Source: Marsupella aquatica
Lineage: Eukaryota; Plantae; Marchantiophyta
Direction: 5' to 3'
NCBI GenBank assembly: GCA_973895155.1
Contig: OZ316891.1
Coordinates: 11,099,875 to 11,163,874, forward strand
Length of the DNA stretch: 64,000 nt
A model generated the notes under the pieces. That model searched no databases, was not told the DNA's origin, and saw only the letters and a list, made by a program, of their open reading frames with translations. The position numbers were made by a program, and so were the translations under genes. This document shows, piece after piece, positions 1 through 64,000 of the stretch (position 1 is the stretch's first letter; every line of letters begins with the position of its first letter).

Positions 1-276
1 TAGGAGTGTTGAGTACAAAAGAAGACAGTTTGCTGTCTTTGTGAATGGAATTCAAAAAGATCTTTCAAGGCAAATTAAAAGAAAGATCAATTTGATTGAA
101 AACTAAGTCAGTAACAGTAGCGAGTCAGTAATGCAAGCAAGCAAGGAATCAAGGAGACTAACCCAGCTGATTTGGGCCTGCTCAATATTGGTACCTGCTG
201 AGAAGATACTCTAATTTCTTATGCCCGAAGAGCTACAAAGCTAAAACCAGGATGTGGACCTGTTGATGACGTGCAG

Positions 277-5975: not shown

Positions 5976-6986
5976 CTACAGTATTGAACAGGCACCTCGT
6001 TTCGCATCCTTCATGAACTCCTCTCGTTCCCTGTTGGCGCGCTCGAGTGCTTCCTTCAAACTTTTAATATCTGCATCAGACTTTTCCCTGTCTTCCCGAG
6101 CCCTCTGCTCCACTTGTTCACGTGCTCGCTGCTCCGACTTGAGACATTCCTCCAGCCTCTCTGAACTCAGACGTAATTTCTCTTCCACCATTACCTTAAC
6201 CTGCTCAAGCTGCTTTGAATATGCAACCTCCAACGACTCTTTCATAGCTTGGAATTCAGGACTGTGCAACCCTAAACCTCCAGCGGGTCGAAGTTGCTCA
6301 TGACCCTGTTCCCTGATTGCAAGCTCCTGGGCTTGTTTGAACAGGTCATTCGAGTAGGGAAAGCCACCATTGGCTGCAACCATATCATCAGTCACGGACA
6401 GCAATTGACTCAATTGCTGTTCCTTTTTTGCCTTATCACTAGTCTTATTATCAAAGAGCACCATCCGATTACCACACTTCTTAATTAAAGTCCTTAGAGA
6501 TTCCGGAGCGCCCTCTCGAAGGTAGCCATCTAAAGTCTCATCAGCGTCTTCGAGTTCATCCCCACCGGTAAAGATGAGAATCATGTAGTTGACAACCTTC
6601 TCCCCAAATATAGTCTGCAGGCTCTCCATCGCTGCCGCCTCTTCTGCCGTGAACCGACTTCTCACCGATAGAACCAGCAGCAGAGCATGAACGCCATCCT
6701 TTGCCAGATCCAGACACTTCATGATCTCCTTCATCACAAACTCGGCTGGCAGTGTTGGGTCAAACAACCCGGGAGTATCCACCACCCGGATGCAGCGGTC
6801 ATCTGGCCGTGTCGTGGATTGGAGCTCACAGGTGCTCGTGACTGCCGCAGAGCCCAATTTGGACTTGAACAATTTCTTCCCCAATATCGAATTGCCACTG
6901 GCGCTCTTCCCATTTCCTGTGCGGCCAACCAGCACCATGGTGGTCGGCGTCGTCAGCTCCCAATCACTATCCTCGCTCCCACCCAT
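5976..6986 (-). CDS. AIG1/IAN (GIMAP-like) immune-associated nucleotide-binding GTPase, 336 aa, intronless CDS, C-terminal coiled coil and CaaX
   Basis: ATG at 6986 (MGGSEDSDWEL). G1 is GRTGNGKS followed by GNSILG, G3 is VVDTPGLFD; GVHALLLV, FTGGDEL and LFDNK are also present. A helical E/Q/R/K-rich tail ends in CSIL. An acceptor-like ttcttacag near 7032 suggests a 5' UTR intron. Confidence 0.93.
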   Translation of the reverse strand: MGGSEDSDWELTTPTTMVLVGRTGNGKSASGNSILGKKLFKSKLGSAAVTSTCELQSTTRPDDRCIRVVDTPGLFDPTLPAEFVMKEIMKCLDLAKDGVHALLLVLSVRSRFTAEEAAAMESLQTIFGEKVVNYMILIFTGGDELEDADETLDGYLREGAPESLRTLIKKCGNRMVLFDNKTSDKAKKEQQLSQLLSVTDDMVAANGGFPYSNDLFKQAQELAIREQGHEQLRPAGGLGLHSPEFQAMKESLEVAYSKQLEQVKVMVEEKLRLSSERLEECLKSEQRAREQVEQRAREDREKSDADIKSLKEALERANREREEFMKDAKRGACSIL

Positions 6987-8371
6987 CGTTCTTCCTCCGG
7001 AACCCAAACGCAAATAGCAGAGCTACAACCACTGTAAGAAAAACAGAATCAAATATGTCATATCCCAACTCCATACGATACCTCGCTTAGAAGGACTTTC
7101 GTTACTTGATTCCCTAGTGGAGTAGAATAAATTGAACGAATGCCATCGCCAGCCACACAATTCCCTCCATGGAATCTCTCTAAATATCGTTTTTGAGAGG
7201 AAAATCGATTCTCACTACTCCCAAAACAAGGAATCTCGTCCTCGAAACTCTTTCAAGCAAATCGAATGTCCATCTCTCTCAAATCTTACTTTGTTCCTTC
7301 GTCCTAAAGAAATAATCGTTCTTCACCCCCACCCAATCCCCCAACATCCCACGGGACACAGAAATTGTTGTTTAAGCTCTTGTCACCACATTAGTTGTCT
7401 TACTTGAAAATCTTTCAACCGTCCCATCAAGAATCATCTCCATGGCATTTCCTACCTCTCCGGTATATCTCTACATCTACCAGCACAGTCATCGATACGA
7501 ATTCATAACTTTTCTTAGCAAATCCTTCTGGCATTTCCTAATTCTCAAGTGACCGTTTTCAACGAAATCCCGACATCACAGAAGCAAACCAAATCCATAC
7601 AGAGTTATGGTGGCCAGCCTGCAGTCCACAAAACGTTCTCAACACCTGCACGGCGACATTCACCAGAGTAACAACTTTGAAACTCGAAATTGTCCAAAAC
7701 CATCCACAGTGGAGGGAATGGAAGCAAGGAATGCCTAAATGCAACCATGAAAACAAGAGAGAGTGAACAGCGAACCTAGCGTGGACACAACGAAGGACGC
7801 GTGGAGAGCAATATAACGCAATCGTATACTCTTCCAGATCCGCAACACCGGCGCCAAGCAGAGGCAATTCGGAGCAGTCTAGGGTCTGATAACGAACGCG
7901 CCTTCAGGGCTCCACATCGAGCTTGCTCATCATGACGCTCTCGTCCCCATTCCAGTCCAAGCGAGAACACGTCTCAAGCAGCAAAATGCTTCCCTCTCAC
8001 AACTAGATATGATGGGGTTCAACACATCAGGAAACCCTCAAAAACACTCTCCTCTCTTTCTCTCAATTCCCCTCCCGTCCCCTCCCGTCTCAGTACAGTT
8101 CAACGAGACAACCGACCAACACCAGCACAATCCACGACACAACGAGGAACAGAAATGTCAAAAGCAACCCATGAAGCAGTGCTTGCAGCATGAAGCAACC
8201 TGCTTTGCGGTGCGGCGGGCTTGCTTCTGACTTGCTTCCAAATGTTTATCCTTGCTTTGTCCACAAAGCCGGGATCGGCGAATGGCGAATCGACCCCACA
8301 GCAGAGGCAGCAAGGCAGGCGGAGGGCGCACCAGGCAGAGCAAGCCAGGTTGCCAATTCTCCGCCTCGTCA

Positions 8372-16100: not shown

Positions 16101-18697
16101 ATCCTGTGCAGAGGTAAAGGCAAAAACACGAAAATCCACTGATCACCCACATGCACAAATGCAAAACCCAAATGAATGCGAAATGGACGGAAACTAGACA
16201 ATGTTCTTCAGTTAAGACACGTGTATCTCAATATATCTTCTACATTGTTCCCTGACCAGACATCACAATGGCTTCAAGGTGACAACATAGTTCACTAATA
16301 AGGAAGGCAAACGGAAATGCCCCTTCGCCTGACTAGATCTGAATCGAAAAGCCTTCAGCGATTCCCACGACAGTGGATGTTAATCCAGAACACTCCAAGA
16401 AGCAGGATCTCTCTCATAAATTGCCACCTCAACTTTCGTTTGTCTCAGAAAACGGAATCGAATATCAATAATAGTAATTTGACCGCTTACAGTGAAAGAG
16501 AATTCGTGGTGAAGAGCTTCTGCTGGTACGAGATTCTCCGCAGATGCTGAAAGAGAATCGCCCCTGCACAATCAGACCAATTAAGATTGCTTAACCAAAA
16601 ACTGTATGAACGATAGATATAAATTGCTAAAAGTGTCAAGAAAGGAATGGAATGTGTTTTCTGAAGAAAAGTATCACCATAGCAACATGATTGCAGCCCA
16701 TACCCGAAAAAGCTATTGAAACATTAAGCTTTTTACGTAAGTAGTTCACTGTCAGTTCATGTCTTAGAGGCTTAGAAAATCGAGAAAAACTAAACACAGT
16801 GACCTGGCGATATAGTTATGCATTTGCACATACTTCGACCCATCAAGCACTTCACGCACACGCTCCTGAACCGATGCTTCCAGTATTGCTTCAATGTTTT
16901 CCTGCATCCAAATCAATCGACTGGTAAAGTAAAAATTGAGAATGAGCCTCTACTTTTAAGCTTCTGTCCTCATTGAAAAACTAGAGCAATTCAAATTTAT
17001 CAAAACGGAAAGACCAAGGTATCAGACATCGTTCTACCCCTGAACATCCAGATTACACAACTTAATGATTACACACCTAGCAGCAGTACAACAATCTTCT
17101 TTGATTGACTAGTTTTTCATTTCATTTTCTAGTAGAAAAATCTTGGGAGAATCTTGATTGGATGATTGAGACTAAGAAACCAAACCAGACGGGCATCTTG
17201 TATTGAACTTTCATAGGGTAGCTTGTAATTCTTCTGATACTGCAAATGTGCGTATCTCCTTGCCTGACAAACATATTAAGAAATTCAGGTGTCAATGACA
17301 ATTTCCTCTTGTTCATTAAAGTATGTCAAGCAAAATGTCATGGAGGGCTCAATGAAAAATTTCAGAAAACTGGAAGAAAAAACCTACTTCACTGCATACA
17401 TCACTGTTGTGGTTATAAGTCTCCTCGAAATAAGAGGACAATGTACCTGATCCCCAAACTCTTCTAGTGTAGCCAAAACCCGCTTTACTAGCCACTGAAC
17501 GACAGGGAGAACGGCCTGGTAATCAAGACCTTGAATCTGGTGAGCTTGAAGTGGATGAGGGCAGGCCATTCTTTGCAACGCCTCTTCAATTGCCTCCCCT
17601 ACTTTTCTGACATCTCAGAAAATGAACCATCAGTGTACATCTTTCAGAGAGAGCACCAATCTGCCCTGATGGACAATACAATACGTGACGCTTGAATGTC
17701 CTCCATCATGGAAAGAACTGCCCTACTCCCTAACTTCCCTCGATTGAGCAAGCTCACAATTTGAGCCTTCACATTTTCTCAAAGTTCATAGTAAATAAAT
17801 TAAGAAAACTGACGTCAACGCCGCAATTCAAAAGCAATGATTACACTATATTGTACATTATACCCACATAATAGTAATCTTAGTATTTTTACGGCTGATT
17901 AGACCCACTACCAAATGAGGTCAAACTAAACGGCGAGGCCAGCCAGGCATGCTCTGAACTACATGGAATAGAGAATCTCCATGTAACGCAGATCAATTGT
18001 CCGATGAGGAGCAAATTTGCAAGGCCCCCTTCTGCATGCCAATAGTCGGGACCGTAAACCTACGACGAAGAAATTCCTTGAACATTAATTATCTGATCCA
18101 GACCCCTAAATAGCATAGGTCTCTCAATCTCGGTCGGTGTCCCATCTGATATAATAAAAAAAGAAGTCTAACTAGTCCACCACGTCCAGGGATCGGCTCG
18201 AAGGGTCAATGCTACTGTTAAATTCCAGATGGCTGGACTCACAAATTGATCTACAGTGCCTTGCAAGAATAGCGTGCAGTCCCAATTCTACGGCCAGACA
18301 CAGAATTTAGTCGCAATAGCTCTGCCTTGCATCGACCATTCGCTGTATACCTTTGAATTTAAGTATCGAAATTAAAAACCCTTAAGGGCGCCCGTAGAAT
18401 TGCTTCAAGGGCAGTGACTGGTAACTCGTCAGCGGATTCAAAGTGAAGTTCGGAGAAGGGAGAGAACATAGGAGAGGACGGGTTAAGTACGTACATTTTG
18501 TAGTAAAGCGTGGCGTCATCGTCGTAGAAGATGTCGAAATCCACGTCCACTTTGCTGAAAGTGATGCACCAAGCCAGTCCACCAGTCAACTTGTCAAAGG
18601 CCGAAAGAGATGAGATGTGCGCCCTGAAATATCCTCGCGCCAGCAGCAGATCCAGGATCGATTGCAGCAGCTGCGTTCTCTCCCCATCGTCCTCCAT
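13128..18697 (-). CDS. CCDC93: Coiled-coil domain-containing protein 93 (CCC/Commander complex subunit), multi-exon
   Basis: Exon 1 (18697-18495) encodes MEDDGERTQLLQSILDLLLARGYFRAHISSLSAFDKLTGGLAWCI. Exon 2 (from 17606) encodes CPHPLQAHQIQGLDYQAVLPVVQWLVKRV. Both match the conserved CCDC93 N-terminus. Coiled-coil exons lie at about 14957-15146, 14734-14814 and 13390-13512, and the last exon 13199-13128 reads EECARSEKLQSKLAHGSETDNKN*. Not all internal exon borders were resolved. Confidence 0.9.
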
Positions 18698-20370
18698 TCG
18701 GCTCTCCTCCTCTGCTCTGCTCAGTTTCCTCAGCTTTTTTGAAGGCCTGAAATCGCCCCTACACCAATTCACGACATCCCATCGACCACCTTGAGTCCCT
18801 GAGCTGGGATTGCCAAGCGTCTCGACTCCGGCTTCCCCGATTTGCTGTTTTTCAAAAACCTGGTCATGCAACGCGGAATCTCAAAGGAATACCGTCCACT
18901 GTAAAACCCGCTCTGTTCGCATTACACTGTATGGCCTGCGTCGTTACTGTACCGATAAGATCGGGCATCCTGTAAGAAGCAAAAGATATGACTGTGTAAG
19001 AAGGAGTCAAGGACCCTTCCGTTCTGACTGAACTGCGTCAGTACGTGCGGAAACAACTGTAACTACTAGACTGCAGTAATGGCACTACGTAGTAGTTGGG
19101 CTTGCAGCGAAGGTACAGCCCATGGTATTTATGGAGGGGCACCAAGAGTCGCAGGATGGGCGACGGTCTCTAGGAAAGTCTTCACGGTCAATCTTAATTC
19201 TTATATTACTCTCCCCACAGTAGTACCGTCGTGTAGTCCAGGTTGGCCTCATGAATAAATATTATTATTATTAAAATTTATATTTTTGAGTCCAACAAAC
19301 AAGGTTTGGGTGTTCGTGAAACCTGCAAAGGCATTTTATTCAAGAAATTTCGAGAATACTCTACTATAGGTATCCTGGCGTAAACTGTGACTGGCAAAGT
19401 AAAGAAACATTTGAAGAATAATGATGGGTGGGAGCATTTAGACTTGAATAAGGTGTTGCACAAGATTGTCCATAGGCAACTAGTGTTGACTGAAGTGTTA
19501 CTGAGAGTAAGGTAGATGGCCACACACTGAGACACTGAGAGTCAGCTAATCAGTATGACAATTGGATCTTGAGAAATTTGTGAGGTGCTGAGAGTGTGAC
19601 CCCTATAGGCACTTATCATAGTTAAGAAACAAATGTCGTCCTAATCAACTCCCATAATCAACTTGCTTAATGCCCAATGCCAACTTCCAGGATACACAGT
19701 GTAAGGGTCAATCCCTACACTGCTCTTGTCTGTGAGGTTGTGAGAATGATCAGGCAGTGAAGCTTGCTCTTTCTCTTTGGTGCAGGTTTGGTTTGCAACC
19801 CCCCCCCCCCTTTTTGTTCTTTCTGGCCCTGCAGGTTCTCTTCATCCATGAGGTTCAAGGGTTATACAATCGAATTTACAAAACAAAAAAACAGCACAGA
19901 AAAATGTCTATAATCAAACACCTCCATAATGAAATTTTGGAGACAGACCATGAAAACTGAAGAGTGTCATAGTGTCTTGGCTGGAAGGCTGGAAGGCAGG
20001 ATGTTTTTGAAGCTGCTATATTGGTGAATGCAACTTTCAGTATTTTGTCTTATTCAAACTTCTTTTTTTATACATTTTTATTTCAATGTGTCATACCAAG
20101 GTGCATCCGTTGTATAGTTTAATTTCCAATTTATTTGGGCACCCCTCTAATTTTTTAAATCTTTGCTATATTTTAAGATCATCTACCCTATAACAAAGCT
20201 CGTTGAATTTCTAGCCCTTATTCTCATGAGTACAGAAAAAATGATCTAAATAATGTGCACATTTTATGTCTTTAAATACTACTCATGGTTTTGTGTCCTA
20301 AATTTATGGTTTTAATTATTTTGAATGTCATTACCTAAAGTAAGTACATAAATATCTTTACTCATGTACA

Positions 20371-26700: not shown

Positions 26701-29556
26701 TTCTTCCATGGACTCCGTCCTGTCATGAGCATCTCCCCTCTCCCAACCCTTCTCCTCAGCTCTCCCGTTCCTGGTTTCCCCTCTCCCTTGCCTAAAGTGA
26801 CCTGCTCACCCCAACACAGGCACCTAAGGCTGACTGTGTAGAGCCGCCTCACCTCGTGCTTGCCTCCCAATATTGGACCCCCTCCTAGCAGTATTGCACT
26901 GCCATAGAAAGATGGAATAGAAATCCCATGGCTGGCATGAGTTCCTGTCCAAAATGCATTTATTTGATGGTAGGTCTATAGGAACTACAGTAGATCAAAT
27001 AATAAAGAAATAACATTATATTGAAACTGAAGGTCTTCCTTTATGATGAAAAATTCAGGTTCACACAGATAACAAGATTGCAACAACCCTTTCATGGACT
27101 GTTCAAGCTCTATGGTCCAGAGTGGAACTTCTAGACTATGGATGTGGGGGTGTAATTGTGCAGGTGGGAAATAAGGACCAGGGGCAAGGTGCGTCTTTGA
27201 GAATGGTGCAGTTTGTGAGTTTAGCATCACTTGAATCAAGGTGAGTCTGTGAGAATTGGCGTAACTTGTGAGGAGTCACTAGAACCAATTGAATGAAAAT
27301 CAGTAAACAATCAACCAGGCTTTGAATCTACTCACCTCTATCGTCGCCCATGAAAATCCTCACCCCTTTCCAGTTTCAAAGAACGAGCCATCGCATTCAT
27401 ATAAATAGGCCTTGCACTTATCACAGGATTGCAGTTACGCTAACGAGGTTGCAGTTCTCGCAAGGGCCGACTGCACCGCCTCGTTTAGCGGTTGGCCAAC
27501 GGGGAACCAACCCACCGGAGCATTTAGCGGACGGGAACTAGCCCACCGGACTACCGGAGCGTCATCCGGCGTCGGAGAGTCGACGGGAACGAGGTACACC
27601 GGCCATTACCGTAGTTCGTGCAGTGCTCTGGCAGAACGGCCGCGAAGGACGGGAATCACGGACGAAGCGACCATAGGAGACCGAAGACTCCGGAGGAGAG
27701 GAGAGGAGAGGAGAGGAGAGACTGGATGAGGAGAGAGGAGAGGAAGAAGAGAGGGTGGAGCACGAACGACGAAGGTGCATCGGCTCGTGCAGGTCTGCAG
27801 CCTGCATGCATGGCTGCTTTGCCTTGTATACAGTAGTTGTATAGCCCCCTTCTGACGCGATTCGATGGTACTCCTGGATCATGTGGACAATCTACCTAAA
27901 GAGTTTATGAGGCGGGCGGGAGGGGGTAGGTGCTCGGATTGGTGCACTCTAGCTATCTCGTTATTAATTAGGGAGTGACAGAGTGAATGCAACAATTGTC
28001 CCTCCCGCAACAGAACAAGCCGGAGATCGAGAGAGAGAGAGAGACAGTGATAGGTTCTTGTTCTTTGATGGGTTTGCGGGCGTCTCAAGTTTAGTGGGGG
28101 ATCAGTTCATGGATTCTGATTCCGTTGCTTATAAGCTCGCTCTATTCCTTTTGGGGGAGATTGACGATAGGCATCGAGTCGTCCGGAGTCTCTCTTGGCG
28201 AGGGCGCTAGAGGAGACCGAGGATCTAGTAGTGTAGAGACAGACAGACACGGGCTTGCAGCAGTGGCAGGGTTGAGGGTAGGACGCTTCGAGAAATAATC
28301 TGCCGATCAAGTAGAGAGGTACGGCGGAATTAATAGGAGGGCCGTACTTTCGTGTGGAATCAAGTTTCAATTGAAATAATATGCTTCGTGGAGGGAGAGG
28401 GGAGGACGAGTAATGTTGTAGCGGAGTGCGATTCGAATCGATGGACTTGCTTGGCCATTTCCGTGTTGAATGTGTGTGGGGGCTATGATTGCGAGTATAT
28501 GGTGGTCAGGGGTGTGTAGAGATTATATTAGTACCTAACCAACAGTACCACCACCACCACCACCAGGCAAATAGCGAATGGTCAAGTTGGCAGCTGTGCC
28601 GTGCTTCCGAAAGTAAGTTGCCGTTGCCTGCAGCAGTGCGGTGCAGTGCGCGGTGTTGATGTTGGTAGCTGACAAGTGCATACCTTCAAATGTAGAGCGA
28701 CCTGCATACGTCTTCTATCCATCTACAGCCTGTCTTCCAAAAGGGATCTTACCATTGTGTGTAAAAGAGGTTGGAAAAGGGAGGGAGACGAGAGACTCTC
28801 CGTAGAGCGAAGGGGTAATACGGAATTTCCAAAGAAGTCATAAAGAAGGTTAGATCGCCAATTAATATCGCCTGTGCGGCATCTACCACAAGGTTCAGGG
28901 CCATTTATATCGTTGTCCGGCCCCTCCACATCTCTGAAGCACATCCCTCTCGGAGTCTCGTCTCTTTTCTTATAACACTGTACACTCATTAATCTGCCTT
29001 CAATATTCAGTTCGAGTCTCGTTTCCGCTACTGTACAACTTCCAGGATATCGCCCACTCTCAAGGAGATATATTTTTGAGAAGAGAGGCTATGGTGCTCA
29101 GTTTAGCTCGTGTCGCACGTATCGGCGGTATTGAACCTCGTCAACTGCAGGACCCTATCGCACCAGGCTTATTAATCATATTCGAGTATCCTGCCTTCTT
29201 GAGCCCCCCTTGAGCTGGAGGACGGCCTGATAGTGTCGTCCATTTCTGTCTGCTGGCAGAATGATGTTCTCGATGGTTTAGGCAATGTTAGTGAAGTGGC
29301 AGAGTGCGGAGGAGCTGAGGTCTTCCTGGCAGTGTAGGGAGGTTTGTGGTGATTTGGTGGGCAAGTGCGCTCGCTGCTCCTTGTTCGTGGTGTTTATTGA
29401 CTGCGGGATGCTCTAAAACGTTTCAGTTTCTTTTTCGAGCAAAGAGCTCGGTGAAGGAGGAGCAAAGCAAGGGAGGGGCGGGCGAAGTACATTGTCTCGC
29501 GCGCCCTTACCTTGAAATTGGCAGTTGCCGAGGGTGCTGGTGATAAATTTTTCGAA

Positions 29557-31188
29557 ATGGCGGTACATGAGCAGAATGGGGTGCACGAGGAGGTGCAAAA
29601 TGGAGAGAAGGTTTCTTCTACTGAGGAGAATGTGCCGTTGCTGAAGGGTGTAAAGTGGATTTCTGCTGGTGGAAATCCTGCCATAGCAATCAAGATCAGG
29701 CAACGACTTCCGGATTTCCTTCAATCGGTCAATCTCAAGTACGTCAAATTAGGTTACCACTACGTGATGACCCACGCCATGTACCTCTTGATGATTCCTT
29801 TGCTCATGGCCGTGGCAGCTGAGATAGGTAGACTGGGGCTGGACGACATTGGGCAACTGTGGGAGCACTTGCAATTCAATCTTGTTAGTGTTCTTTTGTG
29901 CTCCGGTGCCCTCGTCTTTGGAGGCACGCTCTACTTCATGAGCTGCCCAAGGCCCGTCTATCTTGTGGATTTCGCATGCTACAAGCCGGGCGATGAAAGA
30001 AAGTGCACATTCCAGTTTTTCACATCCCTGTCAGCGAAGATCGGAGTTTTCAATGAGAAGAGCTTGGATTTCCAAAGGAAGATTTTGGAAAGATCGGGCT
30101 TGGGTCAAGATACTTATCTACCCAAGGCCGTCATGAGTGAACCTCCTACCCCGTGCATGGCTGCTGCGAGGGACGAGGCCGAGGCTGTCATGTTTGGCGC
30201 TTTGGACGAGCTGTTCGAAAAGAGTGGTGTAAAGCCCAAAGAGATCGGTATCCTGGTCGTGAACTGCAGTCTCTTCAACCCCACTCCCTCGCTCTCGGCG
30301 ATGATCGTCAATCATTACAAGATGAGGGGCAACGTGAAGTCGTTAAATTTGGGAGGCATGGGTTGCAGTGCTGGAATCATTTCCATTGATCTTGCCAAGG
30401 ATTTACTGCAATTACACGGAAGTACATACGCCGTAGTCGTGAGCATGGAGAATATCACACTGAACTGGTACCTGGGCAATGACCGATCAAAAATGCTGTC
30501 GAACTGCATTTTCCGCATGGGCGGTGCTGCAATTCTCCTCTCCAACAAAAGGAAAGAGAGGAGGCGAGCAAAGTACGAATTGGTCCACACCGTGAGAACT
30601 CACAAAGGCGCCGACCCCAAGTGCTTTTCTTGCGTCGTTCAAGAAGAGGATGTGAACGGAAAGATTGGCGTGACCTTGTCGAGGGATTTGATGAGCGTCG
30701 CAGGAGACGCATTGAAGGCTAATATCACCACGTTGGGACCTCTAGTGCTCCCGTTCTCGGAACAGCTCCTCTTCTTCGCAACTCTAGTCGGCAGGAAGTG
30801 GCTTAACATGAAGATCAAACCTTACATCCCAGACTTCAAGCTGGCTTTCGAGCATTTTTGCATCCATGCCGGTGGCAGAGCCGTCCTGGATGAGCTGGAG
30901 AAGAATTTGAATCTCACTCCCTGGCACATGGAGCCGTCCCGGATGACCCTCCATCGTTTCGGTAACACGTCCAGTAGCTCGTTGTGGTATGAGCTGGCCT
31001 ACACGGAAGCCAAGGGGAGGGTAAGCAAAGGCGATCGGCTGTGGCAAATTGCTTTCGGTTCGGGCTTTAAGTGTAACAGCGCTGTCTGGCGTGCTCTCCG
31101 GACTGTGAAGTCTCCTAAGAGGAATCCATGGGCCGACGATATCTATAAGTATCCGGTTGAAGTTCCAGATTTTACGAGCGCTCTTTAG
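29557..31188 (+). CDS. KCS: 3-ketoacyl-CoA synthase (FAE1/KCS very-long-chain fatty acid elongase condensing enzyme), 543 aa, intronless CDS
   Basis: ATG at 29557. It contains [19 protein letters not shown], two N-terminal TM helices, [11 protein letters not shown] and [14 protein letters not shown]. The catalytic motifs [18 protein letters not shown] and FGNTSSSS are intact, followed by [15 protein letters not shown]. Confidence 0.97.
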
Positions 31189-36951: not shown

Positions 36952-39900
36952 CTACAATTGCAAAACCTGCAAAGTAGCAGGGTGTCTTGAGAAACTCTCC
37001 AAAGGAATCACTTTGGTAAAAGCATCCGTGGGATTGAGCTTTCCATCAATCTTGACTAGCTCAAAAGTTTTATCAGACACTGCTTGCCTGATAAAATGGT
37101 ACCTGATATCAATGTGCTTCACCCTGCTATCCATCACCTGGTTAGCAGCCAAGTGAAGAGCACTCTGACTATCACAGTTTAGAGTCATTTTGCCATGCTC
37201 TAAACCCATCTCCGCAATCAACGTGTCCAACCAAATTGCTTCCTTTGCTGCTTCTGCTGCTGCAACATACTCTACTTCTGTAGTAGACTGAGATATACAC
37301 TTCTGCAAGGTAGATTTCCAAATGATACATCCTCCTCCAAGAGTAAATACAAACCCAGTTGTAGACCTCCTTGTATCCAGACAGCCACCATAGTCAGAAT
37401 CTACATAGCCAACTAACGTTCTATCTGATCTGGCATCAAATAGTAATCCATAGTCCTATGTTCCCTTCACATACCTGAGAATCCACTTCACAGCTTCCCA
37501 ATGTACCTTCCCTGGATTTGACATGAATCTGCTAACCTTACCCATCGCTAGGGCCAAGTCAGGCCTAATACAAGTCATCAAATAAATCAGACTGCCTACT
37601 GCCATTTCATAAGGACTCTTAGTCATCAGACCTTTCTCCACAGCATCCGTAGGAGAGAAAGCCGATGATAACTTGAAATGTGAAGCTAAAGGAATACTCA
37701 CTCGCTTACAGTTTTCCATGTTGAATCGTGCAAGTACTTTTCCCGCATACTGGCCTTGACTCAAGCACAACTGTCCAGAATCAGAGTTCCTAAAAATCTC
37801 CATCCCTAAGATCCTCTTGGCCTTACCAAGATCCTTCATCCTGAATTCAGCACTCAATTTTGCCTCGAGACTGTCAACCTCAGATTAATCTTTAGCCACA
37901 ATCAGCATGTCATCCACATAGATCACCAGAATGATGAAACCAGATACATCATTCTTGATTGATTTTGTATACACACAAGGATTATACACCATCCTTGTAA
38001 AACCTTGAGCAAGCATGAAATCATCAAACCACTTGTTCCATTGTCTGGGAGACTACTTCAATCCATACGAGGACTTGAGCAATCTGCACACTAAGTTCTC
38101 TTGGCCCTTCTTCATAAAGCCTAGTGGCTGTCTCATGAAGATCAACTCTTCCAAGTTGCCATAGAGAAAAGCAGTAACAACATCTATCTGATCCATCACC
38201 AGACCAAAGACCAAAAAACACAACAAGTTGACACAAGATCCAAATTATGGAATACTTAGCCACTGGTGAAAAGACCTCATTGTAATCCACTCCTTTCTCC
38301 TGAGTGAATCCCTTGGCAACAAGCCTTGCCTTGTAGATCTTATCTCCACCCTCTGAAGGACTGTCCTTCAACTTGTAAATTCACTTGCTGTCCACCACTT
38401 GCTGACCTTTTGGAAGCTCCATCAGCTCCCACATCTTGTTGTCACTCAAAGATTGTAACTCCCTCTGTATTGTTGCATTCCACTCATGCTTCTGCTCTGA
38501 AGCACAAGCCTCACTGTACAAAAAAGGCTCTCCTTCTTCCAAGATCAAAGCCATGTCATCATCATCAGGTGCAATGTCAATATCATCTAGCTTAGATGAG
38601 TATGCCCATTGACCATACCTGGTAGGAGCTCTAGTAGAACGACTGGAAGTTCTTCTAGTAGATGATTCAGGTTGATCTGCTGCTGCTGGTTGAATTTGAG
38701 GTACCCCAACAACAATCTGCTGCTCTTGTTCCATCACAAGAACCATCTCCAAGCCCGAAGCTTCTCCATCTCTCCTCTCATGAATTGCATCATGACTAAT
38801 CTCCCCCTCAACCCGGTCTGGGATGGGAGATTTCCCTTTGTCAGTATGGGAGTCCTGAGAACTCTCCCCCTCCTTTGATGATCTGGACTCATTAAAGGAC
38901 ACATCTCTACTGACAATTAGTTTACAGGTTACTGGATCCCATAACCTGTAACCATTCACACCTTTCTGATAGCCAAGGAAAATGCATTTCTTTGACTTGG
39001 ACTCCAGCTTGGATCGAAGCTGGAAAGGTGTAAGGACATAAGCATCACATCCAAAAATCCTCAGATGTGAGTAATCTGCTGGACACCCGTACCTCATTTC
39101 AAATGACATCTAGAATCCAATAGAACTAGATGGAGAAAAATTTACCAAATAAGCTGTAGTGTTGATAACTTCAGCCCAAAACTCATGTGGTAAGCATGAT
39201 TGACTCAACATACTCCTTGAGCGGTCCAATAGTGTTTGGTTGAGTCTCTCAGAAACACCATTATGTTGAGGAGTATAACTTGTTGTGAGATGGCGGGTAA
39301 TTCCCTGCTCCTTACAATATGTTCCAAATTCCCCGGAACTGTATTCACCGTCGTTATCCGATCGAAGATATCTCACCTTATTACCAGTCTGATTCTCAAC
39401 TTGGGCTTTCCACTCCTTAAAAGTGGCAAAAATATCAGACTTATTGTGTAGAAAGTATATCCATACATACCTTGAGTAATCATCTATATATGACCGTGAC
39501 ATAGTATAACCGTCCAGAATGTGAGGGAGTAGGGGCTGGACCCCACACATCACTATGTACATACTCAAGTACCTCCTTGCTGGTGTGAGTTCCAACTCCG
39601 AAGGGTTTCCTGTGCTGCTTCCCTAGCACACAGTGCTCACTAAATTCCAACTTACAAGATTGTAAATTAGAAAGTAATCCTTTCTTCTGAAGAATAACCA
39701 AACCTTTTTCACTCATATGACCCAAACGGAAGTGTCACAGCCGGGCCGTCTCCTCATGAGATAAGGTTACATTGGCTTCATCACAAACTACACTGCCCTA
39801 CAAAACGTATAGATTGCTATATCTCTTTCCCTTCAGTACAACTTTAGTACCAGTTGAAACCTGAAGGACACCATTAGCAGAACTCCATTGATGGCCATTT

Positions 39901-41243
39901 GCTTCTAAAACTCCAAGTGAAATGAGATTTCTCATCATGCTGGAAATATGTCTCACATTCCTCAACGTTCTCACAGCACCATCAAACATCTGAAATCTAA
40001 CAGATCCAAGTCCAACAACTTGACATGGGATTCCATTTCCCATCAACACTGAACCATTGCAATCCGTGTAAGAACTGAAAAAATCTCTCCTAGAGCAAAT
40101 GTGAAAAGTACATGCACTATCTAGAATCCAGTCATCACTACTTGGATTTGACACTACGTTGAGAGCATAACCTAGACATCACAATATGTCATCATCATTG
40201 AGTAAATCTACCTCATGCGAGCTCGATGCCGTATTAGCAGATGCAATAGGGACCTTTACTCGATAATCCCTTTTCATGTGGCCAGGCTTGCCACAATTCC
40301 AACATGCAAGAGGCTTCCTCTCTTGCGATTTCCCTCTGGATTTAGATCTTTCACGTGATGTAGATCTAAATCTGTTATGTCCATTTGTGCGCTGCGCTTG
40401 TCTTCCCCGGTTCACGTTCAACGCAGTGCCAAAAGAAGATGTTGTCTGTGATTGACCCAACTTCTTCTGAGCATCATCAGACAATAAAGAGCTCACCACC
40501 TCTTTATACAAAATGGACTTCAGATCTCTATACAAGAGCACCTGTTTCAAGCCCTGATATGACAGCGGTAAGGAGCTTAGCAGAAGCAAGGCCTTATCCT
40601 CATCTTCAACTCTTTTTCCCAAGTTTGACAGATCCACTGCAAGACTGTCAAACTCATCCAGGTGATCCTGCATCTTGCTCCCTTCCTTGAGCCTGAGGCT
40701 CATCAAGAGAGACTTATTGTACAGCCGGTCTGACGCATCTTCCCGATAGTACCTCTCTCTTAGAGCCTTGAACAGTGACGTGCAATCTGCATAATCATCC
40801 AGCTGCTTGATGATGTGCGGCATGAGATATAGCATCACTACATTGACAACAATCACCTGCTCCTGTCTCCACTATCTTACAGAAATCTCCTCCTCACCAT
40901 CATACTGCTCTCGCGATGAAAGCAGATGAGCTAAGCCCATGGCCCAAAGAACACCCTTCACTTGCTTCTCCCACAGCAAGTAATCAGTACGACCATCGTA
41001 CTTCTCCACCTCAAACTTCACTCCTCCAAATCTAGCCATCTCCCTCTTCTTTCCAACTACCGACAGCTCTGGTAGTAATACAGCTTCTTCCACTGCACGC
41101 CGCACCGGTGATCGTATCGGTGACACAAGTTCTTCCTCAAACGGTAGCAGCTCCTCCTTAGACTCTCCGTCTAACCGTCGCGATCCTGAAGCTCCACCAA
41201 CGCCAATTCTTCCAGTATCCTCCAAGTCACTCATATGAAACAA
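36952..41243 (-). pseudogene. Disrupted copia gag-pol polyprotein
   Basis: Fragments are gag (KFEVEKYDGRTDYLLW; zinc knuckle CWNCGKPGHMKRDY with the last Cys lost), protease (WILDSACTFHI), GAG-pre-integrase (GHMSEKGL), integrase (YVHSDVWGP, LRSDNDGEY, TPQHNGVSER), RT ([32 protein letters not shown]) and RNase H (SQSTTEVEYVA, CDSQSALHLA, KHIDIRYHFIR). Several in-frame stops and frameshifts interrupt them. Confidence 0.95.
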
Positions 41244-58032: not shown

Positions 58033-60509
58033 ATGGCTCCTCTCACAGTCCACGCTTTGCTGAGCAAAGCAGTGAGTGAATATGGGGACAGTCTGGCGTT
58101 GGGTGTTCCCGGAGGAGCACAGCTGACGCATGCAGAGTTGCAGGTTGCCATCGACAAGGCAGCGATTCAGCTCAAGGGCGTCGGAGTCAAGCCTGGGGAT
58201 CTCGTTTCTCTGGCCTTCCCTAACTCTTTGGAGGTATGGAAACACCCAAATTAGAAAATTGAGCTTAAGCACTCCATTCACTTTGATGTGACAGTCTTCC
58301 AATAGGGGTTTTTGGGGGTGGGTTGGAAGCAAGTGGGGCGTACTCTGTAATGTGTTGTCAATTTGGTTCTTTGCTGTGTATGTTTCATTCTAGTCTTCTC
58401 AAATCTATTCTCTGCCTTCTGGGAACGTCATTTTTGTTCCCATGAGCAGGGAAGCTTTTCCTTATTTGTTACTCACTCTTACTGGAGCTCGTGCTGCCCT
58501 CAAATATAGCAAATTGCCATTCACAATCCTCATGTGTTCATGGATGGACTAAATGTCTGCAGTTTGTGGTCGTATTCTTGGCCGTGATTCGAGTTCGTGC
58601 GATAGCAGCGCCTTTGAACGCAGCTTACACAGAAGATGAATTTCAATTCTTCATGGAGGATGCGGAGTCCAAGTTGCTGCTCGTGCCTGGGAAGGAGGGC
58701 AATGGGCCAGCGGAGGCCGCCGCAGCAAAGCTGAAACTGCCGGTGGCAGGTGTGCATTGGGAGAAGGGCGAATCCGGGCCAGGGGACGTGGGATTCATTC
58801 CGAAAGCAAGATTAGAATCAGGTCATGCAGAGTCAGCGGGAGAGGCACCAGAGGAGGACGATGGGGCACTTTTTCTCCACACTTCAGGGACTACGAGCCG
58901 TCCGAAGGGAGTTCCACTCACAAACAAAAATCTGGCCTCCTCAATTGAGCATATCAAGGCCACGTACGAGCTTTCTTCTACTGACCGGACTGTAATTGTA
59001 ATGCCACTTTTCCATGTGCATGGGCTGATGGCGGGGTTGCTCTCATCCCTGGGCGCTGGGGGGGCTGCTATACTGCCTTCTGCAGGTCGGTTTTCTGCAT
59101 CAACGTTTTGGAAAGATATAAGGGAAAGTGGGGCAACATGGTACACTGCTGTTCCAACTATCCACCAAATTCTTCTCTCATTGCACAAGAGCAAACCCGA
59201 GGCAGAGTATCCCAAGTTGCGATTTATTCGGAGTTGTAGTTCTAGCCTTGCACCAGCTACATTGCGTTCTCTAGAAGAAGCATTCCACGCCCCTGTTTTG
59301 GAAGCTTATGCAATGACTGAGGCTAGCCATCAGATGACTTCCAATCCGCTTCCAGCTCATGGTCCACACAAACCTGGTACTGTCGGGAAGGCCACTGGAA
59401 TTGAGCTTGCAATTTTGAGCCCTGGTGGAGAAGTGTTGGCTGCGGGGCAAAATGGCGAAGTCTGTATCCGCGGTCCAAATGTGACCAAAGGATACAGAAA
59501 CAACCCTGATGCCAACAAGGCAGGATTTGAGTTTGGCTGGTTTCACACTGGTGATCAGGGAATCATCGATCAGGAAGGTTACCTTTCTCTGACTGGACGG
59601 ATCAAGGAGCTCATTAATCGTGGGGGTAAGTTTTTGTTGGCATTAGCCATTGGAGACCGCAATGAAGTAATCATGGCATTAGTTCCCACTTTTCCTTCTG
59701 CAGTGTTTGTTGTGACGTGACGTTGATAAGCTTCATGTTGGGACGGGGCAGGTGAGAAGATTTCACCTATCGAAGTCGATGAAGTGCTTCTATCACATCC
59801 GGCGGTATCAGAGGCTGTGTCATTCGCTGCCCCCGATGAGAAGTATGGTGAAGAGGTAAGTTTAATTATTCAACCATCAGCTGAATTTTATGGAGAGCTT
59901 AAGGTCGGGAAGTTGCACAAATACTAAATACTTTTGCTCAATCTAGTACTATAACTTCTGGGTTTATTCGTATTTTAGTGCACCAGTTCACCTCACTAGC
60001 ATTAAGCGTGGGTAGAGTAGCTTGTTTACTTTGAACGACTCTTGTGTCAGATTTAGAAACTTTTCGTCAGGGGTGTTTCTGTCTATCGGTTTAGATGAGA
60101 GTTGTGCATGGGACAATAGAGTCAAAGTTACAGCTCTCAGTAAGTCTCACTCACCAATTAACCACCAAACATGTAGCGTATATGTGACAGCAAACGGTCT
60201 CTAGACAAAAATGATTCTTAAGGACCGGATTCTTAGGACAAGGATGTTAGTTTCGCATTTGATGACATAAGTGTGCTGGTCTTACAGGTAAATGCAGCGA
60301 TTGTTCTGTATCCGAACCAGAAAGCAACCGAAAAGGACATTTTGGATTTCGTCAAGAAGAATTTAGCTCCTTTCAAAATTCCAAAACGAATTTTTTTCGC
60401 AGACACACTTCCTCGTACTGCTACTGGAAAAATTCAGCGTCGATTCGTTGCGGAGCACTTCCTCTCAAAGGACAACGGATCAACAAGCAAAAAGGAAAGC
60501 TCAGGTTAG
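58033..60509 (+). CDS. AAE3: Oxalate--CoA ligase (acyl-activating enzyme 3) module; 529 aa if it ends at TAG 60507-60509
   Basis: AMP-binding motifs LFLHTSGTTSRPKGVPLT, PLFHVHGL, WYTAVPTIHQILL, LRFIRSCSSSLAP, VLEAYAMTEASHQM, WFHTGDQG, GRIKELINRGGEKISPIEVD and LPRTATGKIQRR. HTSGTTSRPK, RSCS and EAYAMTEA are typical of the AAE3/Pcs60 oxalyl-CoA synthetase clade. Confidence 0.93.
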
Positions 60510-62932
60510 CATGCATTGTGGAATATGTCTTTGCTTGCAGAATAGCTATCAAGGGGAGTTTCCATTATGAGATCATAAAACAGGGGGAATGCCCTCTTTC
60601 AGTTGTACAGTGATTACAATCTATCAATACCGAGATGAACATGTTCATACCTTCAGCTTTACTTTTGATTGGAGTTTCTACTATCTTTTATCAATTTTCA
60701 ACCTTTGTCACCAGAGAACACCACGAAGGTCTAGCAACAGTCCCAAGAATCCTGTTTGAATCCGATTTGAATACACTTTCAAGAATTGAATGGTCTCCAA
60801 AGTTGGAAAGCTGGGATGGAATTGTTTGAAGGGCGTACTTTTACTGTCATGTATGATGTTTGTTTCTGCAATTCAGTGACAGCAACTCAACAGGAGAAGA
60901 CAACACGTCTTTTAGATGGGAACCTTTTCGCAGCCAAAGCCCTCGCTAAAGCTGGAGTGGAACATATGTATGGTGTAGTTGGTATACCTGTAACAACTTT
61001 GGCTAACTGTGCCATGAGAGAAGGCATTCGTTTCATCGCCTTTCACAATGAGCAATCAGCAGGCTATGCAGCCAGTGCTTCAGGCTACTTGACTGGGAAG
61101 CCTGGAGTACTTCTGACTGTGTCAGGACCAGGTGCTGTACATGGTCTTGCTGGGTTGAGTAATGGAATGATCAATACATGGCCGATACTCATGGTGTCAG
61201 GGTCAAGTGTACAAGCTGATGTGGGAAAAGGTGACTTTCAAGAATTGGACCAGGTTGAAATTGTGAAGCCATTTGTTAAGTACTCGGCGAAGGCAAAGAG
61301 TATAAGGGAAATTCCAACTGCCGTGGCTGAGGCTATTTCCGCTTCTGTCAGCTCTAGGCCAGGTGGTACTTATGTTGACATACCTTCAGATGTTCTGCAT
61401 GAAACCATCAGTGAGGAAGAGGCAGAGAAACTGTTGGAATGTGTGAGTGAATATGTTCCTATCTGGGGTCGAGCAGACATTCCCAAGGAGTTGCAAGCTC
61501 CAAAAACTGATGTCGGTAAAGCGATTTCTTTGCTGAGACATGCTCAAAAACCTCTCATTGTTTTTGGAAAGGGAGCTGCTTATGCTCATGCGGAGGAGCC
61601 CATCAAGCGTTTAGTTGACATCACACATATACCTTTCCTAGCAACTCCAATGGGAAAGGGTTTACTTCCAGATTCCCATTCCCTCTCTGCAGCTGCCGCC
61701 AGATCTCTAGCAATTGGGGAGAGCGATGTAGTTTTGGTCGTTGGTGCGAGGCTTAATTGGTTACTACACTTTGGAGAGCCGCCTCGGTGGTCGAAAACTG
61801 TGAAGTTTATTCTTGTGGATATCTCAAAAGAAGAGATAGAATTTCGCAAACCCACGCTTGGTCTGGTTGGAGATGCAAGAGTGGTTCTGCAGCAGATTGC
61901 TGCTGACGTTAAAGACGATCCATTTTGTTTTGGTGATCAGCACCCGTGGTTGCAGAAACTTAAGGCGAAGTCACAAGCAAACATTGAGAAAATGGCTGCG
62001 TCTTTGGCTAAAGTTGTTGTACCCTTCAATTATCTCACTCCATTGCGGATAATCCGTGATGCAATATTGGCCGAGGGCTCACCAGCACCAATACTTGTAT
62101 CAGAGGGCGCAAACACGATGGACGTTGGGAGGTCAGTCTTGGAACAAACAGAGCCCCGAACGAGACTTGATGCAGGGACATGGGGAACAATGGGAGTAGG
62201 TCTTGGGTACACAATTGCTGCAGCTGTGACACAACCTGGGCGGCTTATTGTGGCCGTTGAAGGAGATTCCGGGTTTGGGTTCAGTGCCATGGAGGTCGAG
62301 GTATTATTATCATTACTAGTTGTGCATTTTTCTTTTTGTTAAGCTTAATGACAAGGGCAGGCAAATGTCGAGGGATGTGATATGCAGTGGCGGCATTCAA
62401 GCTGGAAGTGCCGGATGTATGAGACAGCCAGACGCTAGAATTCCCGATTTTGCCAGAATGATGTTCAGTTTCCCTGAGAGTGAAGATTTTGAAGTAGTGC
62501 ATGGTGCCTTTTCTCATAAGAATGATATCTATTCAGAGTCATTTCGGGTATATGAATCAGTGAGAGTGGATCATCATCGTAAGATAACTAATGCTATTTT
62601 TTGTTTTCTTTGTGTAGACTTTGGTGCGGTACAGACTGCCAGTGGTGATCATTGTCTTCAATAACGGAGGTGTATATGGTGGGGACCGAAGAACGCCCGA
62701 GGAAACCTTGGGTCCTTATAAAGATGATCCAGCTCCAACTTCGTTCGTACCTGGTGCACGCTATGATCTTCTCATTGAGGCTTTTGGCGGCAAAGGATAT
62801 CTAGTGGGAACTCCAGAGGAACTTCAAAGTGCTCTGAAGGAGTCTTTTGCAGCTCGGAAACCTGCAGTCATAAATGTCACCATAGATCCTTTCGCCGGCT
62901 CAGAAAGTGGCCGAATGGGGCACAGGAATTGA
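58033..62932 (+). CDS. Predicted bifunctional oxalate--CoA ligase (AAE3) / oxalyl-CoA decarboxylase (OXC/HACL-like) fusion protein, 1107 aa
   Basis: Six exons: 58033-58233, 58563-59625, 59752-59855, 60288-60504, 60877-62300 and 62618-62932. They total 3324 nt (1108 codons including the stop), and all introns are GT-AG and phase-consistent. The joining intron 60505-60876 (TCAG|GTTAGC ... TTTGTTTCTGCAATTCAG|TG) is phase 1 at both ends and gives ...KKESS-V-TATQQEK... Confidence 0.75.
60877..62932 (+). CDS. OXC: ThDP-dependent oxalyl-CoA decarboxylase / 2-hydroxyacyl-CoA lyase module
   Basis: Motifs DGNLFAAKAL, YGVVGIPVT, FHNEQSAGYAASA (catalytic Glu), VSGPGAVHGLAGL, GDFQELDQ, PFLATPMGKG, GARLNWLLHFG, VSEGANTMDVGR and LDAGTWGTMGVG. 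The ThDP motif is VEGDSGFGFS...VFNNGG, and the end SESGRMGHRN is like plant OXC/HACL proteins. One intron at 62301-62617. Confidence 0.93.
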
Positions 62933-63632
62933 TGGCAGAATGACATACTTGGGCATTCATCACTCCGGGCTGAAAGATCAAAGTTGACACATGTGCTGTG
63001 TACGAGCTGTTGTGGAGAGGTGGGAGATGGACATCTGACATTTCATTAGAAACCCTTTCCAGGAAGCCACACGATGTATTTTCCGGCCATATGTCCATAT
63101 ATGCCACAGACTAAATTAATGGATTTCTAAGTCATGAAAGGAAGCGCTGGCCAGGGAAGAACGTTGTGATTACTAGTAAGGGAACAATATCGACTAAATG
63201 GAAGATAACTTTTTAACACTGGAACAGGCTATGGACAGGAGACGGAATTGGGGACAAGGGAAAAATATGATGTTGCAGTGCATCCCAAAATCTATCGTAT
63301 GTGAGATACCGTGGAGAGGGTAACGATGACCCTACATCCTGAACACGTTGGCTTACTGGATTGGAACTTCACGACATTAGCCTGCAGAACAATTCAGAAA
63401 ACACATCCAAACTGAAAGATTCGAATGGGCGATTCTTCAAGTACTGCCACCATTCTTGCCTAAAATTTACCGAAATGACCTGCAAAGGTCCAACCAATTC
63501 ATCTGGTAAAAGTCTTTGTCTCGACTCACCTCATCGAAGGACTTTTCATGGGTGAATCTGAATGAGAACACAAAGTGTTTACGAATACTGAAGTTATCGA
63601 CTTGGGTTGCCATAAGCTGGGACTACCTGGCG

Positions 63633-64000
63633 CCCCCCCCCCCCCCCCCCCCAAACTATTGGAATTTTCTAAGGTTTCCCCAAACAAATTTATTTACTAA
63701 CCTGACCCCTTGTGTATATGGGTTAGTATTGCCTCAGTAGATGCCTTTGTCATCATTGGTGTAGGGTCTCCTGCTGCCACTTGGCAAGGTTCCGTTGACT
63801 GTGAGCTTGACCCGGGTTATCTTGGCAGAACCATTGAATGGTCAGGTTCAGGGCCTTTGAGACCCAAGGTAGGTTGACTTTACAAGTTGGCCGGAGTTTT
63901 TACCAGGCATGAAACTGAGCCTGGATTTTAGGTGTCTGATTAGATGCCATGCTTTGAGGTGGAAAAACCTGCACACAGATTCACACTTCTTCTAAAGAGA
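63633..64000. repeat. Poly-C run followed by a degenerate element related to the MITE at 56587-57204
   Basis: A run of about 20 C at 63633, then CCCAAAC...TTTACTAAC...GTATATGGGTTAGTATTGCCTCAG, which resembles the TIR-proximal GTATATGGGGTTATATGCTAACCTCAG of the upstream element. The right end was not seen. Confidence 0.45.

What the first reader, a model, noticed from the sequence alone, without database searches (positions are those of the whole stretch)
58033..62932. AAE3 oxalate--CoA ligase and oxalyl-CoA decarboxylase appear spliced into one bifunctional oxalate-catabolism enzyme
Seen in sequence: a complete AAE3-type ligase is followed on the same strand, only about 370 bp later, by a complete ThDP-dependent OXC/HACL. 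The ligase frame ends TCA G|GT TAG, a canonical donor at 60505. The decarboxylase frame is entered through a pyrimidine-rich acceptor, TTTGTTTCTGCAATTCAG| (60876). Both sites are phase 1, so splicing gives one 1107-aa frame with a polar linker (SKDNGSTSKKESSVTATQQEKTTR). There is no Met between the acceptor and the conserved DGN start of the decarboxylase. Established knowledge: in flowering plants AAE3 makes oxalyl-CoA and a separately encoded OXC/OCD1 (HACL family) converts it to formyl-CoA + CO2; these are consecutive steps of CoA-dependent oxalate breakdown. Inference: this is a gene fusion coupling the two steps, possibly channelling oxalyl-CoA, and it supports oxalyl-CoA rather than 2-hydroxy fatty acyl-CoA as the substrate of this HACL-like domain. 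I cannot check whether such a fusion has been described before.
Basis: partly seen in the sequence, partly recalled or inferred. Interest (0 to 1): 0.92.

Follow-up and report, generated by a model that had tools for sequence, protein, structure and literature searches.

The report
Ancient oxalate enzyme fusion, optionally split
A liverwort gene joins two consecutive oxalate-breakdown enzymes that are separate genes in flowering plants, through an intron that related species splice out only part of the time, so it likely makes both a two-in-one enzyme and the first enzyme alone, and the fused form is likely the ancestral state from which true mosses and vascular plants each split.

Summary
The fusion is real but is not special to this genome. 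Six exons give one open 1107-aa frame: oxalyl-CoA synthetase (AAE3) plus oxalyl-CoA decarboxylase (OXC). Spliced contigs from 4 related organisms confirm introns 1, 2, 3 and 5. The linker intron is skipped in 2 of 4 runs but also covered, unspliced, in 4 of 4; retention stops AAE3 one codon later (529 aa). Sphagnum-like loci carry the identical donor and stop (4 of 4), and Sphagnum is annotated both as one gene and as two. The same fusion occurs in Calypogeia, Marchantia, Riccia, charophyte and chlorophyte algae and Galdieria. True mosses and vascular plants have separate genes nested among fused ones in trees of both halves; one origin of the split forms is rejected (AU p=0.012). Oxalate-specific residues are intact; the decarboxylase half is OXC-type, not HACL-type. 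Channelling is unsupported: the linker is predicted disordered. Databases already hold the fused proteins; 10 paper searches found no description, but three key papers were unavailable. No RNA of this species itself was laid. The scan's earlier notes hold no such fusion on other DNA.

The parts
58033..58233 (+). Exon 1, start of the oxalyl-CoA synthetase (AAE3) half
   Evidence: AMP-binding profile positions 3-58; intron 1 (329 nt) skipped in 4 of 4 runs
58563..59625 (+). Exon 2, AAE3 core with P-loop and oxalate pocket
   Evidence: AMP-binding E 4e-63; best PDB match Arabidopsis oxalate-CoA ligase 5ie0, E 2e-150
59752..59855 (+). Exon 3, start of the AAE3 C-terminal domain
   Evidence: introns 2 (126 nt) and 3 (432 nt) skipped in 4 of 4 runs
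60288..60504 (+). Exon 4, end of AAE3 with the catalytic lysine, and first part of the linker
   Evidence: AMP-binding_C
60505..60876 (+). Linker intron (intron 4), 372 nt, phase 1, alternatively spliced or retained
   Evidence: skip of 372 GT..AG in run X1 and 378 GT..AG in X4; covered unspliced in X1-X4; same position in Sphagnum-like loci L002-L005
60501..60509 (+). Donor TCAG|GTTAG; its TAG (60507-60509) ends a complete 529-aa AAE3 when the intron is retained
   Evidence: identical nine letters in 4 of 4 Sphagnum-like loci
60816..60851 (+). Two in-frame ATGs inside the intron (60816, 60849): possible, unproven starts of a stand-alone OXC
   Evidence: single-base gaps at 60817 and 60820 in runs X2-X4 argue against conservation of the first
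60877..62300 (+). Exon 5, rest of linker and most of the oxalyl-CoA decarboxylase (OXC) half
   Evidence: TPP_enzyme_N, M and start of C; 93% identical to the Calypogeia fissa fusion
62618..62932 (+). Exon 6, end of OXC with the OXC-type C-terminal lid; no peroxisomal tripeptide
   Evidence: TPP_enzyme_C; intron 5 (317 nt) skipped in 4 of 4 runs

Best explanation
This is one liverwort gene whose six exons join an oxalyl-CoA synthetase to an oxalyl-CoA decarboxylase in a single frame, and whose linker intron is both spliced and retained in related species, so it likely makes a 118-kDa two-step oxalate-breakdown enzyme and, from retained transcripts, a 56-kDa synthetase alone. [quoted passage not shown] Retention or 3'-end formation inside the intron would supply extra synthetase (inferred). 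Shown: frame, domains, residues, both RNA forms in relatives, wide spread of the fusion, nesting of split forms in trees. Inferred: activity, cytosolic location, translation of both forms, ancestral status, and at least two independent splits (true mosses, vascular plants).
For: Open 1107-aa frame. Junction contigs skipping 372 and 378 nt with GT..AG ends in runs X1 and X4, and a third skipping 396 nt with 95 letters on its shorter side in X1; intron 4 covered in 4 of 4 runs while introns 1, 3, 5 are at depth 0-4. 43 of the 120 listed long homologs carry both AMP-binding and TPP domains, led by Calypogeia (93%), Marchantia, Sphagnum fallax, charophyte and chlorophyte algae and Galdieria; none is named as a vascular plant. 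The S. fallax fusion is also on record from Logan contigs, which for a full spliced sequence implies a transcript. Sphagnum-like loci: same intron position, same TCAG|GTTAG donor and stop in 4 of 4, in-frame ATG 7 nt before the exon in 4 of 4; three other Sphagnum species are annotated with a 581-aa stand-alone OXC, and two of them with a 522-aa AAE3 under the consecutive accession. Retention stops after 1 codon for intron 4, against 6, 31, 23 and 13 for the others. AAE3 pocket residues listed in PMC8905533 all kept; 13 of 14 AtOXC residues listed in PMC8004701 kept. Trees of both halves place Sphagnum (fused) with Physcomitrium and Ceratodon (split); AU p=0.0117 against one clade of split forms.
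Against: No RNA of this species was laid; X1-X4 are relatives at about 82-96% identity, and they are contigs, which cannot rank levels or show ends. The two GT..AG junction contigs have only 26 and 27 letters on the shorter side, below the tool's 31-letter bar. No junction is listed for X2 or X3 (3 joints not shown), and X3 has one 3590-nt contig running unspliced through intron 4. Intron retention is common in plants and may be unproductive. A stop soon after a phase-1 donor is not rare by chance. Galdieria's place relative to green fusions and bacterial OXC is unresolved, so one origin for red and green fusions is inferred only. A few unnamed stand-alone OXCs fall inside or beside the algal fused clade. 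The AU test used a simple model and a group named after a first tree was seen. No activity was measured.
Confidence: 0.72

Rival explanations
1. The gene makes only the fused enzyme; intron-4 retention is slow or incomplete splicing at a weak donor and gives no useful protein.
For: GTTAG departs from the usual GTAAG donor (recalled consensus) and no branch-point-like word was found in the last 60 nt of intron 4, though none was found in intron 1 either. Calypogeia, Marchantia and Riccia are annotated only as fusions in what was listed. A long 3' tail with a downstream intron would invite nonsense-mediated decay (established knowledge).
Against: Only intron 4 is covered in 4 of 4 runs; the stop is identical in Sphagnum-like loci; an unnamed liverwort-like 524-aa AAE3-only protein is on record from a 2040-nt Logan contig; Sphagnum-cluster metagenome proteins are spliced at intron 3 yet end at the intron-4 stop.
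Confidence: 0.13
2. In this species the two halves already work as two tightly linked genes; OXC has its own start inside the intron (ATG 60816 or 60849) and the spliced fusion is minor.
For: X3 shows no junction and an unbroken contig across the intron. Two open in-frame ATGs exist. Sphagnum has an ATG 7 nt before the acceptor and is annotated with a stand-alone OXC in three species.
Against: Junction contigs in X1 and X4; gaps at 60817 and 60820 in X2-X4 break the first ATG's context; splice phases and linker length match annotated fusions; the ATG position is not shared with Sphagnum.
Confidence: 0.1
3. The C half acts mainly as a 2-hydroxyacyl-CoA lyase in alpha-oxidation, as many database names say, and the fusion is not a two-step oxalate pathway.
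For: Many database names read 2-hydroxyacyl-CoA lyase; the half has Phe/Gln where bacterial OXC has Tyr/Glu; PDB scores for HACS and OXC are alike; 17 of 21 chlorophyte-clade fusions end in a PTS1-like tripeptide.
Against: 69% identical to the Arabidopsis-type OXC, which has the same Phe/Gln and was shown to decarboxylate oxalyl-CoA; groups with bacterial OXC apart from animal HACL1 (support 100, 85 with more long branches); 37 of 37 fusions have the OXC-type ES(G/A) lid, not the HACL-type RKxQ lid.
Confidence: 0.05

Closest known systems
Arabidopsis AAE3 / grass pea LsOCS / yeast Pcs60 oxalyl-CoA synthetases (PDB 5IE0, 6QJZ, 8AFF)
   Same: Best sequence and fold matches of the N half; oxalate pocket and catalytic lysine kept.
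   Different: Those are stand-alone proteins; here the synthetase is the N half of a longer frame and becomes stand-alone only if intron 4 is retained.
Arabidopsis AtOXC (At5g17380), maize OCD1, bacterial OXC (PDB 2C31, 2Q27)
   Same: 69% identity and 13 of 14 listed residues shared with the Arabidopsis-type sequence from locus L008; same C-terminal lid type.
   Different: No start codon of its own in exon 5; entered by splicing from the synthetase.
Annotated AMP-binding + TPP proteins of Marchantia polymorpha (BBN15885.1), Calypogeia fissa (CAM6097231.1), Sphagnum fallax (KAH8952087.1), Coccomyxa, Chlorella, Galdieria
   Same: Same five domains, order and linker position; this gene is their orthologue.
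   Different: They are named after one half only; no paper describing the fusion or the optional split was found; most chlorophyte forms end in a PTS1-like tripeptide, this one does not.
Animal HACL1 and bacterial HACL/HACS
   Same: Same ThDP fold and family.
   Different: Separate clade and RKxQ-type lid (lid residues from passages of PMC11271303).
Algal CER1/CER3 bifunctional protein (PMC13326499; search listing and start of abstract only)
   Same: Same kind of story: one algal protein corresponds to two land-plant enzymes.
   Different: Unrelated pathway; nothing seen there about an optional split by intron retention.

Membership tests
Oxalyl-CoA synthetase (AAE3/OCS) | AMP-binding plus AMP-binding_C domains with P-loop and catalytic lysine | tested here: met
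Oxalyl-CoA synthetase (AAE3/OCS) | Oxalate pocket V215-H216, C288-S289, A313-M314, H319, K500 (AtAAE3 numbering, PMC8905533 passages) | tested here: met
   all present in the alignment with 5ie0 and the exon-4 motif
Oxalyl-CoA synthetase (AAE3/OCS) | Orthology with plant AAE3 in a tree | tested here: met
   (bacterial outgroups only; no fungal rows)
Oxalyl-CoA synthetase (AAE3/OCS) | Forms oxalyl-CoA in vitro | not testable with these tools
   needs an assay
Plant oxalyl-CoA decarboxylase (OXC/OCD1) | PYR, R and PP domains with ThDP, Mg and ADP-site residues listed for AtOXC | tested here: met
   13 of 14 identical, F379 is Tyr; TM-score 0.94 to bacterial OXC for the Calypogeia model
Plant oxalyl-CoA decarboxylase (OXC/OCD1) | Groups with plant and bacterial OXC and carries the OXC-type C-terminal lid | tested here: met
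Plant oxalyl-CoA decarboxylase (OXC/OCD1) | Decarboxylates oxalyl-CoA; dimer; cytosolic | not testable with these tools
   no PTS1-like end fits cytosol; activity untested
2-hydroxyacyl-CoA lyase (HACL1/HACS) | RKxQ-type C-terminal lid and placement in the HACL clade | tested here: not met
Channelling bifunctional enzyme | Fixed interface or tunnel between the two active sites | tested here: inconclusive
   monomer model of the Calypogeia orthologue: linker 517-535 pLDDT under 50, pTM 0.56; dimer not modelled
Single spliced fusion gene | Transcript across the linker junction in this species | tested here: inconclusive

The most novel reading that the evidence does not exclude
The first two steps of CoA-dependent oxalate breakdown were one polypeptide from the red-green algal ancestor onward; bryophytes put an intron with a built-in stop at the domain border, giving a regulated switch between a fused enzyme (commits oxalyl-CoA to breakdown) and a free synthetase (frees oxalyl-CoA for other uses), conserved between liverworts and peat mosses. 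That switch is a living intermediate of gene fission and explains why true mosses and vascular plants split the gene independently at the same border.
Probability: 0.4. Interest if true: 0.8.

Novelty: new variant of a known kind. Interest (0 to 1): 0.6.

Why it matters
It would reverse the textbook picture of the plant oxalate pathway: the separate AAE3 and OXC of crops would be the derived state. It gives natural evidence that the plant and algal proteins labelled 2-hydroxyacyl-CoA lyase are oxalyl-CoA decarboxylases. It offers a gene caught between fused and split, testable in Marchantia, where one can delete the intron or the stop and ask what each product does. It also supplies a ready single-gene, two-step oxalate-degrading enzyme of the kind sought for lowering oxalate in food crops.

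Tried and rejected
No whole genome is held for the window, so paralogues could not be counted. Run search: no RNA holder listed; the four small-share runs were laid and proved spliced. Depth over the AAE3 exons is higher than over the OXC exons in those runs, but contig depth cannot rank parts of a gene, so it is not used. Intron 4 shows no sequence likeness between the window and Sphagnum-like loci beyond the donor. Upstream DNA of split moss OXC transcripts gave no sign of an intron remnant. A haptophyte label on one fusion was set aside: the protein falls among chlorophytes and may be a contaminant. In the 1.84-billion-protein search, 8 of 147 new hits matched both halves; five have a ThDP part only 26-37% alike and were not counted as this fusion. 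No complex prediction was run. Neighbouring genes are unrelated to oxalate. Paper searches without a description of the fusion. Not held: Shockey and Browse 2011, Foster 2012, Yang 2018.
Full report
Observation. The region holds six exons on the + strand. Joined at GT..AG sites they give 3324 nt and one open frame of 1107 aa, 118 kDa. Pfam, run on five of the six exons, finds AMP-binding, AMP-binding_C and TPP_enzyme_N, M and C in that order. The linker intron is 60505-60876, phase 1 at both ends, with TAG at 60507-60509; if it is retained the frame ends as a complete 529-aa synthetase. Retention of the other four introns would stop after 6, 31, 23 and 13 codons inside a domain. Two open in-frame ATGs lie in the intron at 60816 and 60849.

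RNA evidence. The run search listed 8 runs, none on record as RNA. I laid the four small-share runs, from four related organisms and three studies. All four skip introns 1, 2, 3 and 5, so they are spliced transcripts. For intron 4, X1 has a contig skipping 372 nt with GT..AG ends (depth 50.7) and another skipping 396 nt (depth 47.3, 95 letters on the shorter side, ends not resolved), and X4 has one skipping 378 nt with GT..AG ends (depth 72.4). The two GT..AG contigs have only 26 and 27 letters on the shorter side, under the tool's bar of 31. No junction is listed for X2 or X3, with 3 joints not shown. All four runs also cover intron 4 itself (depth 26.5, 56.4, 180.1, 23.7) while bins inside introns 1, 3 and 5 are at 0 to 3.9. 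X3 has one 3590-nt contig that runs unspliced through intron 4 and spliced across intron 5.

Spread of the fusion. Among long homologs of exon 5, 43 of the 120 listed (147 found) carry both AMP-binding and TPP domains. They include Calypogeia fissa (93% identical, so the window is probably a leafy liverwort), Marchantia paleacea, Sphagnum fallax, Closterium, Trebouxia, Coccomyxa, Chlorella, Chlamydomonas eustigma, Chloropicon, Ostreobium and Galdieria; Mesotaenium, Chlorokybus, Chromochloris and Botryococcus are read from JGI codes by recall. Cluster look-ups add Marchantia polymorpha, Riccia and Spirogloea. None of the 43 is named as a vascular plant. Searches at single-enzyme length return separate OXC and AAE3 proteins for Physcomitrium, Ceratodon, Diphasiastrum, ferns, gymnosperms and angiosperms, and a separate AAE3 for Selaginella. 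Locus tags put the two genes on different chromosomes in Ceratodon (3 and 1) and Diphasiastrum (9 and 10), which is my reading of the tags. Hornworts, Klebsormidium, Chara, glaucophytes and other red algae did not appear by name, so their state is unknown.

Sphagnum mirrors the window. Four Sphagnum-like metagenome loci among the 80 kept hold both halves with introns at the same positions (checked for introns 2-5 in L002). The linker intron is 830-832 nt, its donor is the same nine letters TCAG|GTTAG with the same in-frame stop in 4 of 4, and an in-frame ATG lies 7 nt before the next exon in 4 of 4. The four loci are close relatives, so they count as about one independent case. S. fallax is annotated as one 1102-aa protein, also on record from Logan contigs. 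S. jensenii, S. troendelagicum and S. balticum are annotated with a 581-aa stand-alone decarboxylase, and the first two with a 522-aa synthetase under the consecutive accession. Metagenome proteins in these clusters include forms spliced at intron 3 that end at the intron-4 stop, and forms that read intron-4 sequence into a decarboxylase spliced at intron 5. The intron bodies of the window and Sphagnum share no detectable likeness.

Direction of change. In the OXC-half tree of 84 rows, split land-plant enzymes nest among fused algal and bryophyte ones, and plant, algal and bacterial OXC form a clade apart from animal HACL1, fungal and HACS rows (SH-aLRT 100). On 31 streptophyte rows, fused Sphagnum joins split true mosses (91/92), the state changes twice, and one clade of the 20 split rows is rejected (AU p=0.0117; LG+G4, group named after the first tree). 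The AAE3-half tree agrees (Sphagnum with true mosses 98, vascular plants 94). With distant representatives added (29 earlier rows dropped), support for the OXC clade falls to 85, Galdieria is unresolved, and a few unnamed stand-alone OXCs lie inside or beside the algal clade. So fission in land plants, at least twice, is well supported; one origin of red and green fusions is inferred from shared order and linker position only.

Function. The pocket residues given for AtAAE3 in passages of PMC8905533 (V215-H216, C288-S289, A313-M314, H319, K500) are all present. A sequence from locus L008 matches AtOXC numbering at 14 of 14 positions named in section 2.3 of PMC8004701; the window is 69% identical to it and keeps 13 of 14. 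AtOXC was shown to make formyl-CoA, to be cytosolic and to be a dimer (PMC8004701, abstract and sections 1 to 2.3). All 37 fused and 20 split plant rows have the ES(G/A) lid seen in bacterial OXC, whereas animal HACL1 and HACS rows have an RKxQ-type lid (lid role from passages of PMC11271303). AlphaFold on the Calypogeia orthologue folds both halves (mean pLDDT 86; TM-score 0.94 to bacterial OXC, 0.77-0.79 to AtAAE3) with a disordered linker and pTM 0.56. This fits a flexible tether and gives no support for a tunnel. By a loose pattern from my recall of PTS1, 17 of 21 chlorophyte-clade fusions end in a peroxisomal-type tripeptide against 0 of 16 others, including this one.

How it most likely works. 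Spliced transcripts give a cytosolic enzyme that activates oxalate to oxalyl-CoA and decarboxylates it to formyl-CoA on one chain, dimerising through the OXC half. Transcripts that keep intron 4, or end within it, give the synthetase alone. Whether a free OXC is also made from an internal start is open; it is more plausible in Sphagnum than here. Activity, protein products and regulation are all inferred.

What is known. Ten searches found no paper describing the fusion. PMC9090294, read through its main text (supplement not read), includes Chlamydomonas and Physcomitrium OXC in its tree and does not mention a fusion. Term searches in PMC12537018, PMC4945632 and bioRxiv 10.1101/2022.08.30.505785 found nothing relevant (passages only). 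Shockey and Browse 2011, which I recall surveys algal and moss acyl-activating enzymes, Foster 2012 and Yang 2018 were not held, so an earlier mention cannot be excluded. The fused proteins are already in public databases under one-half names. The scan's own notes hold no such plant fusion.

Verdict. A real, apparently undescribed variant of a known pathway: an old fusion of two known enzymes, with an optional split at the domain border in liverworts and peat mosses, and repeated full fission later.

Noticed in passing
protein P0033: A 920-aa eukaryote transcript protein fuses a formyltransferase (Formyl_trans_N and C) to an OXC of the plant-algal clade. It hints that formyl-CoA may be passed to folate chemistry; the third step of the plant pathway is unidentified according to PMC9090294.
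   Followed up: partly
proteins P0014-P0042, P0062: 17 of 21 chlorophyte-clade fusions end in a PTS1-like tripeptide, 0 of 16 streptophyte, Galdieria and other rows do: the pathway may have moved between peroxisome and cytosol.
   Followed up: partly
protein P0125: A 549-aa OXC-only protein in the Marchantia cluster, from a 3739-nt Logan contig, starts at an internal Met and has a spliced C terminus; it may reflect intron-4 retention in Marchantia-like RNA.
   Followed up: no
proteins P0529, P0536, P0562, P0563, P0572: Unnamed proteins with an AAE3-like ligase followed by a distant ThDP enzyme (26-37% to OXC): a separate ligase-ThDP fusion, probably bacterial.
   Followed up: no
proteins P0524, P0526: Two divergent unnamed AAE3-OXC fusions of 1233 and 1256 aa on long branches; they may extend the fusion beyond the named algae.
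   Followed up: partly
window 270-4727 +, 5976-7022 -, 18359-18880 -, 29455-31188 +, 38381-40871 -: Other genes in the window: OPT oligopeptide transporter, AIG1 GTPase, CCDC93, a KCS/FAE1-type synthase and copia-type retrotransposon remnants; none belongs to oxalate metabolism.
   Followed up: no
window 63631-63652: A run of about 22 C downstream of the gene.
   Followed up: no
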